Shown: positions 6,097 to 51,900 of the stretch, one piece after another
How positions within the stretch are numbered: position 1 is the first letter of the stretch
Layout of the letters: every line of letters starts with the position of its first letter
IMG/VR virus record: IMGVR_UViG_3300032038_000052
Span: 1-64,000 of that record
Direction: 5' to 3' (one strand)
Length of the DNA: 64,000 nucleotides
DNA from: a virus
Taxonomy: Duplodnaviria; Caudoviricetes
The notes under the pieces: generated by a model
Seen by the model: only the letters and a program-made list of their open reading frames with translations
The model's database searches: none
Told to the model about the DNA's origin: nothing
Translations under genes and position numbers: made by a program

Positions 6097-6211
6097 TGAG
6101 AGCACAAGGACTCGAACCTTGCCACCAAATTTGGGATAGTTCCCCAAAACCAAATAAACCCAAAGATAATATCATCCTTGGGTTTATTGTGTGTACCAAA
6201 TATTTACTCTC
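6097..6211 (-). ncRNA. tRNA-like element with expanded central arms
   Basis: Minus strand: acceptor GAGAGTA/TGCTCTC + A73, T-arm CAAGG-TTCGAGT-CCTTG, D-like TATT-TGGTACACAC-AATA; no canonical 7-nt anticodon loop. Confidence 0.55.
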
Positions 6212-7460
6212 ATAAATGCTATGGTTATTTTACCCACTTATAGCCTTTGCTATTCCTCATCGGATTTATAGTCGGTTTGGTCGTTCTCATCTCTCATTCG
6301 ACTTTGTATAACCCAACCCCCACCATAGTAAGGGTGCTAGGTTAACGGACTTTCACTCGTCAGACTCCTAGATGGATTGCCTGGTTATCCCAATTACACC
6401 GCTGTCGGATTTGAAGAGAGTGGTATCCCACTAGCGACTCCACACAAACTAGCGTCCATGCTTCACAGTCTCCCACCTATTCTGTACATCATTCGCATCC
6501 TTGTGCCAATGAACTAGGCATAATATTGTCCTCTGCTAGACAACTTCTACATGTTGCGTGACATTATTCACCACAGGTTTTCACCACTGCGGAGTTGTTC
6601 CTATGCACAGCTTTATTCGCTTAAACGTCCCCTTATCCCATGAGTACGTATGCACGTATCTATACTTCTGTAACTTTACCGCCTTACGTCATCAACGAAA
6701 ACCAAGCATATACAAAGGTGGTTCTTCACAGCCTATCACCCCAAAATGCAGGGTTAATGAATGCTTGCTAGTTCTATGTGCTCATGCACATACAGAGCTA
6801 GTCAGTCTTAATGCTCGTACTTCTCCGACCGCATTTATCTCGTCACAGAATAATATTCCGCCACGCCTGTTATGTGCTGACCATACCTACCCCTCGGCAC
6901 AGTATGATCCCCTGTCATTCCTCGCAAAACCGCAGAGAGAAATCGGGAATAGACCCCCACACACCGTGGAGTTACCCACGTTGGATTTGATACGCATAGT
7001 CACGCTTGTGGGCATGAAAATACGCATGGTTCGTGTCACGGCTACTCTACACCGTCACGTTATAGACTACGCCCTATCCTGGCACACTGTGCACAAAGCT
7101 CTCACTCCGACCAAATGTCGTCACACAGTAGCCCCACCGCAACAGAATTACCCATACACGGCTGTGCCAATACCGCCTAAGCGCACGGTATTATACGGCT
7201 GCAGAAGCTTCCCCTTTTCGGACATAGCCACGCCTATGATTTTGTCAAGGTGCGATTTCACCCATCTTAACCGAATACATCCCCAAATCAGCGGTTTTGA
7301 AGCGCACGTTCACAAGTGACACCGCCAAATACATACAGGCTAATCCTGCTGACATTCGCAGACATGCCGACAAACACTTTTACAGATACTTGACCATGCT
7401 AAATCATGCAGACATCCTGTGTCCATCCTTATGCGCACAACCCCCATAAAATCGGGAAAC
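6212..7460 (-). ncRNA. large structured ncRNA (~1.25 kb; GOLLD-like candidate)
   Basis: No credible sense ORF, G-rich minus strand, many hairpins (e.g. 6768-6801, 7171-7190), preceded by a boxA-like site, followed by a tRNA-like element; boundaries approximate. Confidence 0.65.
6417..6489 (-). ncRNA. 23S rRNA L1-stalk (H76-H78) mimic embedded in the ncRNA
   Basis: Minus strand TGTACAGAATAGGTGGGAGACTGTGAAGCATGGACGCTAGTTTGTGTGGAGTCGCTAGTGGGATACCACTCT follows the conserved bacterial 23S GGATAGGTGGGAG..TGAAG..H78..TGGGATACCAC pattern; flanks are not rRNA. Confidence 0.8.
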
Positions 7461-7464
7461 GCAG

Positions 7465-7484
7465 TATTCGATTGTCAATGTGCG
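7465..7484 (-). promoter_or_regulatory. boxA-like antitermination element 2
   Basis: CGCACATTGACAATCGAATA, near-identical to 8444-8463; resembles Firmicutes rrn boxA. Confidence 0.55.
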
Positions 7485-7550
7485 ACCCCCTGCCAAAATG
7501 GGCAGGGACGCACCGAGCCTAACGCCTTTTTATACTCGCTCGGTCGAGTC

Positions 7551-7573
7551 TGAATAGTCGGGTGTGAGCATGG
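7551..7573 (-). repeat. 3' arm of long-range inverted repeat (pairs with 8427-8449)
   Basis: CCATG-CTCACACCCGA-C-TATTCA pairs with TGAATA-TCGGGTGTGAG-T-CATGG: 22 bp with two single-nt bulges. Confidence 0.75.
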
Positions 7574-7581
7574 CTTAATTA

Positions 7582-8253
7582 TTACTTATTCTGAGCCTTG
7601 AGAGCCTTTTTCTCGGCTTTGGTCAGAATGTGGATGAACTTGTACTTGGGCAGAATGTCGCCCATGAGGTCGCAAAGCTCGCCCATAAACACGGTTCTCC
7701 ACATGTTCTCAGTCATAGCCTTGTTGTGCTTGCCTGTTTCGGCTTTACTGCTACCTGTGCCCTTGCCCTTGCGGACGCAGTGGTAGAGCGTGTCAAGGGT
7801 ATCCCAAGCGGGAGTCAGCCCCTGTGCAGTAAGCAAGTCCGCAATCGCCTGCGTATAGGCGGATACTCTCCAAGCGCCGTTGTCATCTTCCATGGAAGCC
7901 ACGTAGGACTTATACAGGGTCTTCCCAAAGATAGCGGTAACCTTGGACACAGCCTTTTCCTGCTCTGCCTGCCAATCAGACAGACGTTTCTCAGACTCAC
8001 GGATATTCTGCTCCATCTGCGCAATCTGATCCTCATAGTACGCCTTGTCGTGGATACCGAAAGACTTCTTGTCAATCAGCTCAAGATTGGTCGCAATGAT
8101 ACCCTTGGCGTTGGCGACTTCCTGCGCTTTCTTCTTGCGCAAGTCAGCAAGTTCGAAGTCGAAGATATGCCAAATAGCCATAGTGTCACGGAATGCCTTG
8201 GCGGACTTAACGTTAAAGTTAACCTTGCCTGCGTTGATAGTTGTGTTAGTCAT
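7582..8253 (-). CDS. first early protein (223 aa), coiled-coil/basic, function unknown
   Basis: Start reassigned to MTNTT (ATG 8253, AGAAAGTGAGG RBS); GC-rich, strongly biased codons; TAA stop. Confidence 0.8.
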   Translation of the reverse strand: MTNTTINAGKVNFNVKSAKAFRDTMAIWHIFDFELADLRKKKAQEVANAKGIIATNLELIDKKSFGIHDKAYYEDQIAQMEQNIRESEKRLSDWQAEQEKAVSKVTAIFGKTLYKSYVASMEDDNGAWRVSAYTQAIADLLTAQGLTPAWDTLDTLYHCVRKGKGTGSSKAETGKHNKAMTENMWRTVFMGELCDLMGDILPKYKFIHILTKAEKKALKAQNK

Positions 8254-8426
8254 AGTAATCCTCACTTTCTGCCCACTTTTGGGGCTGTGTAAAATTTGTG
8301 TGATAATGCACTCAAAGCGCCGAGAAACAGTGTTACCCATAGTCACCTATGCACCGCAAGTCTTTCTCATACTTGTAACCTCGGACTTGCCATTCAGTTT
8401 CAGACAGTCCCTACTTTGAGTAAGTC

Positions 8427-8449
8427 CCATGACTCACACCCGATATTCA
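8427..8449 (-). repeat. 5' arm of long-range inverted repeat
   Basis: Complementary to 7551-7573; overlaps the boxA-like element, as rrn processing stems do. Confidence 0.75.
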
Positions 8450-8463
8450 ATTTTCAATGTGCG
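8444..8463 (-). promoter_or_regulatory. boxA-like antitermination element 1
   Basis: CGCACATTGAAAATTGAATA about 40 nt downstream of the predicted TSS. Confidence 0.6.
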
Positions 8464-8510
8464 CTGTCCGAACCGCTCGGCTTGTGTTCCGTTCGTTTCG
8501 AACTGTCATC

Positions 8511-8538
8511 ATTAAAGCACATTGCTGCAATCTGTCAA
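8511..8538 (-). promoter_or_regulatory. sigmaA-type early promoter
   Basis: TTGACA-N16-TTTAAT with extended TGn, pointing into the early operon. Confidence 0.65.
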
Positions 8539-48900: not shown

Positions 48901-51900
48901 CCAGGTGTAGCTAAGAAAGTTGGCAATGTCGCTGTTAACGGCAGAAACAATGGTCACGCTTATGCTAATGGTAAGCCAGGAGATCTTGTTGGTGAGCTTG
49001 GGCGAGAAATGGTCGTCGATCCGCATACTGGCAGATATTACACGGTTGGCGACAATGGACCTGAGTTTACAAACATCCCAGATGATGCAATTGTATTTAA
49101 CGCCGACTAGACAGATGACTTATTAAAACATGGTCACACTTCTACTCGTGGTCGTGCTCTTGTAACAGGTAACGCTTTTGATAGTACAGATTCTACCAAT
49201 GAATTTGTCTATAATGATCCAAAGAATACATTTGGAAATGGTGCAAAAGCAACTAAAGATAATACTAAAGCTACGAAAGATAACACCAAAGCGTCCAAAG
49301 AACAAAAGACTGCTCTTGATAAGTTCAATGATTGGCTCGGTAAATGGGTTGACTGGATTGATAATCGTATTGATTCTCTAACAAAACGTATTGAACGATT
49401 TGAAAAGAAAGCAGATGAATTAATCGGTTATTCCAAAAAGAACTAGACAATCCAAAATGCGATGAATACTCTTTCTACTATTCCGTAGTATCAAAATGCG
49501 CAGTTGAAAACCAAGAAAGTTAAAGGCACCAATGGTGTTGTAACAGAAATTGCAACTGGAACAAGTGGTGTTAAGAAGGGAACTCTTCTTGGCGATACCA
49601 TGCGTGGTGCTGTTAGATATCAGCAACAGGCCGACAAAGTGATGAAGAAGGCCGTTAAGAGCGGGCTTCTTTCTCAAAAGAAAGCTAACGAAATCGCTAA
49701 ACTCATCTAGACTGGTGAGATTGATATTCGTAAGTACAATGAGAAAGTTCGTGCGGTAATTTAGGCATACGAGGACTGGTTTGGCAAGTCACAAGATTTG
49801 ATTGATTCTACTTATGAACTCAAGCAACAGTTCAAAGATCTCGAACAAACGAAGCTTGATAATATTACTGAGAGATTTGAAACATTAGTAGGATTATTTG
49901 AAGCGGCAAATACTTTATCTGAAGCGGCTGTAGATTATTATTCTGAGCGAGGTCGTGCTGTTAACACTGTAGATAAAACAGAGATGGGCTTCCAGCTTGA
50001 ACGGCAAGGTCGTATAACTCAAGAGCTAGAAAACGAGAGAACTGCATATGAAACTGAGATGAAGCAAGCCAAGGCTATTTTTGGCGAAAGCTCCAATGAA
50101 TATCGTTAGGCACGAACATAGTTCTATCAAATACAAGAAGAGTTAAAGAAATCTTAGACATCAGAGCTTAGTTTAAGACACACAATTGAAGAACTCACAT
50201 TTACTGTACGTGGATTTGTGATTGACAGGATTCAATCTTTTGTAAGCAAACTTGGCAACATTGCTTCTTTGGCTGAAAAGCGTGGCACAAATAAAGCATT
50301 GGGTTATGAAGTAACCGAAGATGTATTTAATGAATAGATAGGGTATAATAACGATTTGATCCTTAAATATGCTGAAGATTTACAAGCTCGTAAAGACGAA
50401 ATCGCTCGTCGTACTATTGAAGAAGGACTTGAAATCAATTCTGATGCATATTAGGAGCTTTATAACAAGATTGTTGCGGATGAAGATGCAATGTATAAGC
50501 TTTATTCTGCAAATGAAGATCTCAAGATGTCTATTCGTAATCTTAGATGGAAACCGTTCAAGGAATTTTAGGAAACTCTTGATAAGATTGAAAGCGACTT
50601 TAATCACATCTAGAGCTTTATTCGTGAAGGTGAATTGCTTGATGATGACGGACAGTTTACTGCTCGTGGATTTGCTCAGATAGCTCTTGTTGGCGAGAAT
50701 ATGGATGTCGCAGAAAAGAAGATCGCAAACGCTCGTGCTGCTATTGAGAAGCTGAACGATGAACTTGAAGTTGGCACAATTAATGAAGAGACTTTCGGCG
50801 AAGAGTTCGAGGCTCAGATGAAGATTATCCAAGATTCTGCTTCTAGTGCGTATGACAGCATGCAGAAGCTTGCTGATTTGTACATCAAGCAGATTACCGA
50901 GGAGAATTCGATTCTTCAGGATTTGATTAAGAAGAGACAAGACGCATTAAATAAAAAGAAAGCGTACTATGATTATGACAAACAGATTCGTTAGAAAAAT
51001 AAAGATGTAAATGCACTTAGGGCTTAGATAAATGCCTTGACTGGAGTATCGACCGATGCGGCCAAGGCCCGTCGTGCACAACTCCAGGCACAGCTTAAAG
51101 AATCTGAACAGGATTTAGAAGATACTCGTTATGAACACCAGATTGAAATGCAACAGCAAGGCTATGAGCAACTCTCCGAGGATATGCAGAAAGCCTTGGA
51201 TGATGCAGTCAAGCTGATTAACGGCGATCAACAAGCCCTGAAAGATACTGCCGCAACGATGCTCTCTCAGCTTGAAACAAATTATATTGACGAGAAAGCT
51301 GTTATAAGCGGCATTGTAGCGGGGACTGGTACTAAAATTCATACTGCAACCGAGGACATGATTGACCAGACCTTGACTGCGCAATCCGTATTGTCAGATG
51401 ACGCACAGGGGATTGCAAGTGCTGTTTCTGCAATTGCTAAAATTCTTGGACAGAATCCTCAAAAGATGGCGGAATCTTTGGGCGGTATTCTTACTCAGCT
51501 CGGCAGTACTGGAACGCTTTATCAGGCGATTGCTAAGTTTGCTGATGAGAATGGCATTAAGATTAATGAACTTGGATTGGATGGAGTAATATCCGCTATT
51601 GCTGCCCCGTATGATGGACAGGGCCAAGCCGCTAAATTATTCGCGGAAATCAATTCTGCGATTACTGGAGATAATACAAGAAATTCTGTATTCTCACAGA
51701 CGGCAGCTATCAAATCTGTTATTGATACCATTGCCGAGAAACTCGGTTTAGACAAAGAGGCCGCTTACAACGAGGCTCAGGAAATTGCTAAACAACTTGG
51801 AGGAGACGCAACAATCTCCGATGTTGTAGACCAGTTCCTTGACAACCGCGGCATTGAAGTCGATTCTGAGTTGCAGGATTTCATTGATAACATAACAAAT

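What the first reader, a model, noticed from the sequence alone, without database searches (positions are those of the whole stretch)
7465..8538. Early operon built like a ribosomal RNA operon (promoter, boxA, processing stem, second boxA)
The order on the minus strand is: sigmaA promoter (8538-8511); CGCACATTGAAAATTGAATA (8463-8444); a 22-bp two-bulge long-range stem (8427-8449 with 7551-7573) enclosing exactly one 223-aa gene; a second near-identical element CGCACATTGACAATCGAATA (7484-7465); the large ncRNA; a tRNA-like element. Established: Firmicutes rrn operons have boxA overlapping long stems that flank 16S and 23S and are cut by RNase III. Inference: the phage recruits host NusB/NusE rRNA antitermination for an untranslated 1.4-kb RNA and excises a stabilised mRNA cassette where 16S would sit. 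The enclosed, highly codon-biased first early protein is then a prime host-takeover candidate.
Basis: partly seen in the sequence, partly recalled or inferred. Interest (0 to 1): 0.85.

Follow-up and report, generated by a model that had tools for sequence, protein, structure and literature searches.

The report
Phage operon mimicking rRNA operon
A family of large gut or rumen phages starts an early transcript with the signals bacteria use for ribosomal RNA (hairpin, three boxA sites, long flanking helices) and uses a self-cleaving pistol ribozyme to cut a messenger RNA away from a 1.3-kb non-coding RNA.

Summary
On the minus strand there is a sigmaA promoter with an extended -10. Then come a 5' hairpin, boxA1 (8463-8444) and a long-range helix (8449-8427 with 7573-7551) around one 223-aa gene. 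The "second 20-mer" follows at 7484-7465.

- An Rfam pistol ribozyme lies at 7549-7481 (72 bits; cut-off 34.5). Its predicted cut, G7486|U7485, is one base before boxA2, and its P3 helix uses boxA2 bases 1-3.
- A third boxA lies at 7254-7235.
- A second helix ties boxA2 to the stretch just before boxA3.

The whole layout recurs in 17 or more related metagenomic loci (protein identity 46-87%). The stem changes sequence but keeps pairing: 0 of 20,000 arm permutations fit as well.

The 12-nt core matches genuine boxA of Clostridia rRNA leaders and spacers. One genome shares 17 identical bases with boxA2, and its 23S is 89% identical to the L1-stalk copy in the ncRNA.

NusB/S10 loading and RNase III cutting remain inference. 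The 223-aa protein is helical and has no known relatives. I found no paper describing this. Two earlier scan notes report rRNA-style cassettes in other phages.

The parts
8511..8538 (-). SigmaA-type promoter: -35 TTGACA, 16-nt spacer, extended -10 (TG-n-TTTAAT)
   Evidence: Read. A promoter with TTGACA or TTGCAC and TGnTAttAT sits at the same place in the related loci. Clostridia genome G121 has the same promoter type before its rrn leader.
8469..8495 (-). 5'-terminal hairpin (5-bp stem, 17-nt loop with the conserved motif GGAACACAAGCC), in the boxB-like position just before boxA1. An alternative small hairpin at 8503-8491 shares one strand.
   Evidence: the stem sequence differs between loci but stays paired, and the loop motif is conserved. 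B. subtilis and G121 rrn leaders have a small hairpin immediately before boxA (PMC13753749).
8444..8463 (-). boxA1 20-mer. The boxA core is 8462-8451. Its last 5-6 bases already belong to helix LT1.
   Evidence: A run of 21 nt is identical to a Streptococcus 16S-23S spacer boxA region (L085).
8427..8449 (-). 5' strand of the long-range helix LT1 (leader strand)
7582..8253 (-). 223-aa ORF with stop codon, SD GAGG 8 nt upstream. A confident all-helical model with no known relatives.
   Evidence: 27 homologues at 37-87% identity. No Pfam or PHROG hit. AF2 pLDDT 89. No fold match.
7551..7573 (-). 3' strand of LT1 (trailer strand). It starts 4-9 nt after the stop codon and ends 1 nt before the ribozyme.
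7481..7549 (-). Pistol self-cleaving ribozyme. Predicted scissile bond between G7486 and U7485.
   Evidence: Rfam RF02679, 72.1 bits against a gathering score of 34.5, full length 1-68. Nine related loci score 39-74 bits at the same place. P3 covaries. The cut position follows from the family's G-U site in the model alignment and from knowledge of pistol structure.
7465..7484 (-). boxA2 20-mer, the first bases of the 3' cleavage product. Bases 1-3 form the pistol P3 3' strand, bases 2-13 are the boxA core, and bases 12-21 are the 5' strand of helix LT2.
   Evidence: A run of 17 nt is identical to the spacer boxA of Clostridia genome G121.
7269..7278 (-). 3' strand of LT2 (GTATTCGGTT), pairing with 7473-7464. 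LT2 closes a structured module of about 200 nt.
   Evidence: in most of the 15 loci a helix of this kind ends about 13-18 nt before boxA3, and the paired bases change on both sides between loci; 24 of 39 RNAalifold pairs in the pistol-to-boxA3 stretch, which includes the module's interior, carry compensatory changes.
7235..7254 (-). boxA3, a third boxA-like element
   Evidence: Present 199-253 nt after boxA2 in 15 of 15 loci with enough sequence, and some copies are canonical TGTTCTTTGAAAA.
6212..7234 (-). Main body of the large non-coding RNA. It has no credible ORF and contains a 72-nt copy of the 23S L1 stalk at 6488-6417.
   Evidence: Rfam LSU model positions 2135-2206, 50.7 bits. 89% identical to the four 23S genes of G121 and 78-81% to other Clostridia. 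The gene-free gap is conserved in relatives.
6097..6211 (-). tRNA-like element at the 3' end of the ncRNA (7-bp acceptor, T arm, oversized inner hairpins, no encoded CCA). The terminator-like hairpin 6188-6153 lies inside it.
   Evidence: The T-arm motif lies 1245-1476 nt after boxA2 in all 7 loci that reach that far, and the acceptor covaries. ARAGORN calls no tRNA.

Best explanation
This is an early, host-RNA-polymerase transcription unit built on the plan of a Clostridia rRNA operon.

Shown by sequence and comparison:
- A sigmaA promoter with an extended -10.
- A 5'-terminal hairpin.
- Three boxA elements of the host-class type.
- Two long-range helices whose 5' strands begin inside boxA1 and boxA2.
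- A pistol ribozyme between the mRNA and boxA2.
- A 1.3-kb structured RNA carrying a 23S L1-stalk copy.
- A terminal tRNA-like element.

Inferred mechanism:
1. Each boxA loads host NusB:S10, with NusG and NusA, onto the elongating host polymerase, as on rrn operons.
2. The modified polymerase then runs without pausing or terminating through about 1.4 kb of untranslated, hairpin-rich RNA, including a terminator-like hairpin. It may continue into the downstream early genes on the same strand.
3. Because boxA stays bound at the polymerase, the adjacent leader strand is held near the RNA exit. It pairs with the trailer strand as that emerges, forming LT1 around the mRNA and LT2 around the 200-nt module.
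4. The pistol ribozyme cuts co-transcriptionally one base before boxA2. The mRNA is left with a folded ribozyme and a 2',3'-cyclic phosphate at its 3' end, next to LT1. The ncRNA gets a 5'-hydroxyl end that starts with boxA2.
5. The cut severs the tether made by boxA1, so boxA2 (and later boxA3) reloads the complex. This is the same logic as the spacer boxA that follows 16S excision in rrn operons.
6. LT1 (20-29 bp) either serves as an RNase III site or simply protects both mRNA ends.
7. RNase P and RNase Z acting on the tRNA-like element set the 3' end of the ncRNA.
For: boxA identity:
- The motif scan of bacterial genomes put 27 of 84 hits 60-275 nt before the 16S 5' end or 110-185 nt before 23S. 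Further hits lay after promoters, after tRNA-Ala or at contig ends.
- In a sample of Clostridia chosen only by a 23S landmark, every spacer with enough sequence had a boxA-like 12-mer upstream of 23S. The variants were the ones the phages use: ACATTGACAA, ACCTTGAAAA, ACAATGACAA.
- G121 shares 17 identical bases with boxA2. Its 16S leader reads promoter, small hairpin, boxA.
- Across 49 distinct phage copies, G2, T8, A12 and A13 are invariant. A4, C5, T7, G9 and A10 are nearly so. Positions 14-20 differ between boxA1/2 and boxA3. The shared part is therefore a 12-nt core.
- Three of the four core matches in 64 kb lie in this 1.2 kb on one strand.

Literature:
- B. subtilis NusB binds the rrn boxA-like sequence that follows a small 5' hairpin (PMC13753749).
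- G2 and C5 are key NusB contacts (PMC3177189).
- boxA anchoring is proposed to help the leader-trailer helix form (PMC10250234).
- boxA raises expression of a long untranslated CRISPR array about tenfold (PMC7862264).

LT1: present in 16 of 16 loci at dG -25 to -40. Cognate arms average -32.4 against -21.8 kcal/mol for non-cognate arms, and 0 of 20,000 permutations do as well. Ten or more positions show two-sided changes.

Pistol.

Architecture is conserved down to 46% protein identity and in IMG/VR loci L164 and L221.
Against: - No binding, antitermination or end-mapping data exist for this system. Everything about Nus factors, RNase III and RNase P/Z is inference.
- Position 6 of the core is often A or C, where transversions of U6 impair lambda boxA in E. 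coli (PMC3177189). Genuine Clostridia and Streptococcus spacers carry the same bases.
- Rho is less important in many Gram-positive bacteria, and rrn antitermination has not been reconstituted there (PMC13753749).
- No long-range partner was found for boxA3. No terminal helix was found around the whole ncRNA.
- LT2 is short (8-10 bp), and its duplex z-scores are modest.
- The host is unknown.
Confidence: 0.6

Rival explanations
1. rRNA-precursor decoy. The point of the boxA copies is not to help transcription. It is to give the abundant, ribozyme-released ncRNA (boxA2 at its very 5' end, boxA3 inside, an L1-stalk copy, a tRNA-like end) the ability to soak up NusB:S10, ribosomal protein L1 and processing enzymes. 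That would depress host rRNA synthesis or ribosome assembly.
For: boxA2 and boxA3 stay on the mature RNA after the pistol cut. The L1-stalk copy is 89% identical to a Clostridia 23S. A 5'-OH end is expected to slow 5'-dependent decay in Firmicutes (established knowledge of RNase J, not tested here).
Against: boxA1 precedes an mRNA and would be lost from the ncRNA. The tight coupling of each boxA to the 5' strand of a long-range helix fits a co-transcriptional role better. No expression or abundance data exist.
Confidence: 0.15
2. The 20-mers are recognition sites for a phage-encoded RNA- or DNA-binding protein (for example the 223-aa protein regulating its own operon) or internal promoters (TTGACA). 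Their likeness to boxA is coincidental.
For: Copies 2 and 3 in the window contain TTGACA. The 223-aa protein has no assigned function.
Against: Many relatives lack TTGACA at these sites, and no -10 partner is conserved. The conserved core follows class-specific variants of genuine rrn boxA, with a 17-nt identity to G121. Its position after a 5' hairpin and before a leader-trailer helix copies rrn leaders.
Confidence: 0.1
3. Passive relic. The phage lineage once captured pieces of a host rrn operon (leader, spacer, 23S fragment). The elements persist without a Nus-related function, and only the ribozyme and the helices matter for RNA processing and stability.
For: The boxA and L1-stalk pieces are both closest to the same Clostridia genome. 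That is compatible with capture from a host.
Against: Three copies keep the same 12-nt core across lineages whose flanking helices and protein have diverged to 46% identity. Beyond the 72-nt piece and the boxA cores, no other similarity to rrn DNA is left. That pattern is what selection on those elements would give.
Confidence: 0.1

Closest known systems
Bacterial rRNA operon leader and spacer (boxB-boxA-boxC, rrn antitermination complex, leader-trailer helices cut by RNase III)
   Same: A strong sigmaA promoter, a small hairpin, boxA of the host-class sequence, and immediately afterwards the 5' strand of a long-range helix whose partner lies after the enclosed unit. A new boxA stands before the next structured RNA, and a tRNA-type element sits in the operon (PMC10250234; PMC13753749).
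   Different: The first enclosed unit is a protein-coding mRNA, not 16S. The following RNAs are not rRNA, apart from a 72-nt L1-stalk copy. A self-cleaving ribozyme does one of the cuts. There are three boxA copies. The unit is phage-encoded.
Phage lambda nut sites (boxA plus boxB with protein N and host Nus factors)
   Same: A phage transcript carries boxA early in an early operon, presumably to convert host polymerase into a termination-resistant form.
   Different: The hairpin lies before boxA, as in rrn, not after it. Its loop is 12-17 nt, not a boxB pentaloop. No N-like protein was identified. The host class is Gram-positive. Each boxA is fused to a long-range helix.
boxA upstream of CRISPR arrays and suhB (Stringer et al. 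2020, as cited in PMC7862264 and PMC13753749)
   Same: boxA is placed before a long untranslated transcript to keep polymerase going.
   Different: Those cases have a single boxA, no leader-trailer helix, no ribozyme and are cellular genes.
Pistol ribozyme, Rfam RF02679
   Same: A full-length, high-scoring member. Pistol ribozymes are known to be frequent in Firmicutes phages (PMC4604425).
   Different: In many of the 80 other phage pistols sampled, the ribozyme sits just upstream of a ribosome-binding site and start codon (by eye). Here, and in only 2 of those 80 (both members of the same family), the 3' product starts with boxA and a giant ncRNA, and P3 overlaps boxA.
Phage T7 early mRNA processing by RNase III; ROOL/GOLLD large phage RNAs next to tRNAs
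   Same: Phage early transcripts are cut at long helices into stable units (established knowledge). Large structured phage RNAs lie beside tRNA-type elements, and ROOL is present in this same window.
   Different: No boxA or ribozyme coupling is described for those. The ncRNA here matches no Rfam family.

Membership tests
Pistol ribozyme (RF02679) | Covariance-model score above the curated gathering score over the full model | tested here: met
   72.1 bits against 34.5, model positions 1-68. Nine relatives score 38.8-73.6 bits.
Pistol ribozyme (RF02679) | Helices supported by compensatory change | tested here: met
   The last P3 pair is G-C, A-U or U-A in 16 of 18 loci. The pseudoknot and P2 pairs covary in RNAalifold.
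Pistol ribozyme (RF02679) | Self-cleavage at the G-U linkage, giving 2',3'-cyclic phosphate and 5'-OH ends | not testable with these tools
   Needs in vitro transcription or end mapping.
rrn-type boxA (NusB:S10 site) | Sequence matches genuine boxA of rRNA leaders and spacers of the host class | tested here: met
   17-21 nt identities to Clostridia and Streptococcus spacer boxA. G2 is invariant and C5 is nearly invariant (PMC3177189).
rrn-type boxA (NusB:S10 site) | Promoter-proximal, on the transcribed strand, unpaired, after a small hairpin and before a long-range helix | tested here: met
   PMC13753749; PMC10250234.
rrn-type boxA (NusB:S10 site) | Binds NusB:S10 and confers antitermination | not testable with these tools
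   A biochemical or genetic assay is needed.
rRNA leader-trailer helix / RNase III processing stalk | Long-range complementarity flanking a unit, kept by compensatory changes, about two helical turns long | tested here: met
   LT1 in 16 of 16 loci. 0 of 20,000 permutations match the cognate fit. Helices of 17-29 bp.
rRNA leader-trailer helix / RNase III processing stalk | Cleaved by RNase III | not testable with these tools
   No end data are available.
Genuine rRNA operon | Encodes 16S, 23S and 5S rRNA | tested here: not met
   Only a 72-nt 23S L1-stalk piece matches. A protein gene sits in the first helix.
Lambda-type nut site | boxA followed by a boxB hairpin that binds an N protein | tested here: not met
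   The hairpin precedes boxA and has a 12-17-nt loop. The seven neighbouring proteins scanned gave no N-like family hit in Pfam or PHROGs.

The most novel reading that the evidence does not exclude
The operon is a phage-made imitation of a pre-rRNA. Its ribozyme-released product carries boxA at its 5' end, a second boxA, an L1-stalk copy and a tRNA-like tail. It engages host ribosome-biogenesis and transcription factors (NusB:S10, L1, RNase P/Z) either to redirect them to phage transcription or to starve host rRNA synthesis. The pistol-boxA overlap acts as a switch that exposes boxA only after cleavage.
Probability: 0.15. Interest if true: 0.9.

Novelty: new variant of a known kind. Interest (0 to 1): 0.72.

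Why it matters
- It gives a concrete, testable biological setting for a pistol ribozyme, a class whose biological roles are still largely unsettled. Here the ribozyme separates an mRNA from a giant non-coding RNA and creates that RNA's 5' end.
- It suggests that Gram-positive phages borrow the host rRNA antitermination and RNA-chaperone machinery without an N-type protein. They would do so by copying the host's own leader grammar three times in a row.
- It offers a natural system to test the model that boxA anchoring promotes long-range helix formation, with an mRNA rather than 16S as cargo.
- It provides a host-class clue. boxA and the L1-stalk copy both point to one Clostridia lineage.
- It provides a portable design (boxA + helix + ribozyme) for expressing long structured RNAs in Firmicutes.

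Tried and rejected
- No DNA match in the INPHARED phage collection.
- Peptide-pattern searches of IMG/VR with the protein or its alignment found nothing. Two IMG/VR members (L164, L221) surfaced only through a pistol DNA pattern.
- The seven IMG/VR contigs with the exact 20-mer carry no Rfam family and have other contexts.
- The idea that pistol ribozymes in general are followed by boxA was rejected. Only 2 of 80 other phage pistols have boxA, and both belong to this family.
- Only 1 of 151 sampled Clostridia genomes has a pistol.
- A leader-trailer partner for boxA3 was not found. A terminal helix closing the whole ncRNA was not found either, since the duplex energies were no better than shuffles.
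- Foldseek against PDB and BFVD, and VIA-align against 48,161 chains, gave only generic helical-hairpin matches for the protein.
- BLAST of 60 kb of the window against five Clostridia genomes gave no prophage or spacer-type match. It found only the 23S piece and weak hits at 12.6-13.2 kb of the second segment.
- The Rfam LSU hit was not relisted in the permissive sub-window scan. BLAST to real 23S genes confirmed it.
- A formal count of structure pairs on LT1 was not made, because the two arms lie about 900 nt apart in a long alignment. Equivalent counts and permutation controls were scripted instead.

Full report
**What the window is.** The window lies in a 78.6-kb IMG/VR virus record estimated to be about 46% complete. 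The record also carries a ROOL RNA, a tRNA-Pro and a suppressor-type tRNA. Genes left of about 9 kb run on the minus strand, and the GC skew flips there.

**Checking the observation.**
- The minus strand reads -35 TTGACA (8538-8533), a 16-nt spacer, TG, then -10 TTTAAT (8516-8511).
- The two 20-mers are exactly where stated. There are 2 matches in 64 kb with up to 3 mismatches, against 0.06 expected.
- The inverted repeat has an 11-nt perfect core. It extends to a duplex of -35.9 kcal/mol, against -19.3 +/- 3.2 for shuffled partners.
- It encloses one ORF, 8253-7582, of 223 aa.

- Rfam finds a full-length pistol ribozyme at 7549-7481 (72.1 bits; gathering score 34.5). It starts one base after the 3' arm of the stem.
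- The family's G-U scissile site falls between G7486 and U7485. The 3' product therefore begins one base before the second 20-mer.
- Bases 1-3 of that 20-mer are the 3' strand of pistol helix P3.
- A third, weaker copy of the 20-mer lies at 7254-7235.

**Relatives.**
- The 223-aa protein has 26 homologues in metagenome assemblies, at 37-87% identity.
- I fetched 11 contigs through them, six more from JGI metagenomes, and two IMG/VR contigs through a pistol DNA pattern.
- Every locus that reaches far enough has the same order: promoter with extended -10, hairpin, boxA1, 5' arm, leader of 90-350 nt, the gene, 3' arm, pistol, boxA2, boxA3 about 200-250 nt later, about 1 kb of gene-free RNA, and a tRNA-like element.
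- Pistol scores above the Rfam cut-off in 9 of the 11 Logan and ENA loci scanned. The other two contigs end about 4 and 208 nt after the gene.
- boxA3 is present in 15 of 15 loci with enough sequence.

**The stem is real.**
- In 16 loci the 5' arm starts inside the last bases of boxA1 and pairs with a stretch 1-35 nt after the stop codon (dG -25 to -40 kcal/mol).
- The helix exists in at least six different sequence versions, with two-sided changes at ten or more positions.
- Each 5' arm was paired with every 3' arm. Cognate pairs average -32.4 kcal/mol and non-cognate pairs -21.8. All six divergent lineages prefer their own partner. None of 20,000 permutations reaches the cognate sum.

**A second helix.** Bases 12-21 of boxA2 pair with a short stretch just before boxA3. 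In most of the 15 loci the helix ends about 13-18 nt before boxA3, and the paired bases change on both sides between loci. The helix is short, so I call it probable. RNAalifold was run on the stretch from pistol to boxA3, which includes the enclosed module of about 200 nt. It finds 39 pairs, 24 of them with compensatory changes.

**Are the 20-mers boxA? Three tests.**
Of 84 hits read, 27 lie 60-275 nt before the 16S 5' end or 110-185 nt before 23S. Others follow promoters or tRNA-Ala, or sit at contig ends, as rRNA operons do in draft genomes. A Streptococcus spacer shares 21 identical bases with copy 1.
2. A sample chosen without the motif: 201 Clostridia genomes were searched with a 23S landmark only. 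Each spacer with enough sequence has a boxA-like 12-mer upstream of 23S, and the variants are the ones seen in the phages. Genome G121 shares 17 identical bases with boxA2. Its 16S leader reads TTGACA, extended -10, small hairpin, boxA, the same order as in the phage.
3. Among 49 distinct phage copies, G2, T8, A12 and A13 never vary, and A4, C5, T7, G9 and A10 rarely do. Bases 14-20 differ between boxA1/2 and boxA3 and take part in helices. What the three sites share is therefore a 12-nt core, the size and content of boxA.

Three of the four core matches in the window are in this 1.2 kb on one strand.

**Published work that frames this.**
- NusB contacts G2 and C5 of boxA (PMC3177189).
- B. 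subtilis rrn leaders have a small 5' hairpin followed by a boxA-like sequence that binds B. subtilis NusB (PMC13753749).
- rrn leaders have boxB-boxA-boxC and leader-trailer helices, and boxA anchoring is proposed to hold the leader strand at the polymerase until the trailer emerges (PMC10250234).
- Adding boxA raised expression of a long untranslated CRISPR array about tenfold (PMC7862264).

**An rrn link beyond boxA.** The 72-nt 23S-like piece inside the ncRNA is 89% identical to all four 23S genes of G121 and 78-81% identical to those of other Clostridia. G121 is the genome with the closest boxA.

**Pistol context.** In many of the 80 other phage pistols found with a core pattern, the ribozyme sits just upstream of a ribosome-binding site and start codon (judged by eye). 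Only two are followed by boxA, and both are members of this family. The pistol-boxA junction is therefore special to this operon type. The first base of boxA2 covaries with its P3 partner as G-C, A-U or U-A.

**The protein.** It has no Pfam or PHROG family. The AlphaFold model is confident (pLDDT 89) and helical, with a long helical hairpin. Foldseek and VIA-align give only generic helical matches. Its function is open.

**Interpretation.** The best reading is an rRNA-operon mimic, with these steps:
- Host polymerase is modified at each boxA by NusB:S10 and partners.
- The modified polymerase reads through the structured untranslated RNA.
- boxA anchoring helps each long-range helix to form.
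- The pistol ribozyme separates the mRNA from the ncRNA.
- boxA2 reloads the complex after the cut.
- tRNA-type processing sets the 3' end.

The sequence grammar, conservation and covariation are shown. Factor binding, antitermination, RNase III cutting and RNase P/Z cutting are inferred.

Rivals are a decoy role for the released RNA, a phage-protein site, and a functionless relic of captured rrn DNA.

**Novelty.** My searches found no paper on boxA-and-ribozyme cassettes in phages. The searches cover only the held library. Two earlier notes of this scan describe rRNA-style cassettes in other phages, and I did not test them.

Noticed in passing
window 7254-7235 (-): A third boxA-like element, conserved 199-253 nt after boxA2 in 15 of 15 related loci. 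Some copies are canonical TGTTCTTTGAAAA. A conserved small hairpin follows it directly.
   Followed up: yes
window 7464-7279 (-): A structured module of about 200 nt between boxA2 and boxA3. It has an internal duplication (two similar hairpin units) and a closing helix GCGCAU/GUGCGC that covaries.
   Followed up: partly
window 8283-8268 (-): A conserved hairpin (GCCC-loop-GGGC) immediately upstream of the Shine-Dalgarno of the 223-aa gene, present in most relatives. It may be a stabiliser or a translational element.
   Followed up: no
window 8490-8479 (-): The loop of the 5' hairpin carries a motif (GGAACACAAGCC) conserved across many loci while the stem changes. This suggests a specific ligand.
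   Followed up: partly
window 6488-6417 (-): The 23S L1-stalk copy is 89% identical to the four 23S genes of Clostridia genome G121 and 78-81% to four others. G121 also has the closest boxA, which makes it a candidate host lineage.
   Followed up: partly
window 6211-6097 (-): The tRNA-like element has a covarying 7-bp acceptor and a T arm, conserved in 7 loci, but ARAGORN calls no tRNA. The terminator-like hairpin 6188-6153 is one of its inner arms, not a free-standing terminator.
   Followed up: partly
L143:1-70: In one divergent relative, the 3' part of a tRNA (T arm and acceptor) lies just upstream of the hairpin and boxA1, as in an rrn spacer.
   Followed up: no
L038, L056, L074, L083: Four Streptococcus genomes share an identical 40-nt boxA-containing stretch with no rRNA landmark in the fetched 8 kb. 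This may be a boxA in front of another operon.
   Followed up: no
L005:623-642, L006:10664-10683: Unrelated IMG/VR phages carry the exact 20-mer a few bases upstream of a ribosome-binding site and start codon. boxA-like leaders may be more widespread in phages.
   Followed up: no
L147-L226: In many of the 80 phage pistol ribozymes sampled, the ribozyme lies directly upstream of an SD and ATG, so the cut would trim the 5' UTR of the next gene.
   Followed up: partly
window 51834-51845 (+): The only other match to the 12-nt boxA core in the window. It lies inside a 307-aa ORF and is probably chance.
   Followed up: no
window 32600-33200 (+): This stretch gives 65-75% DNA matches to three Clostridia genomes. 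It is probably a shared conserved gene.
   Followed up: no
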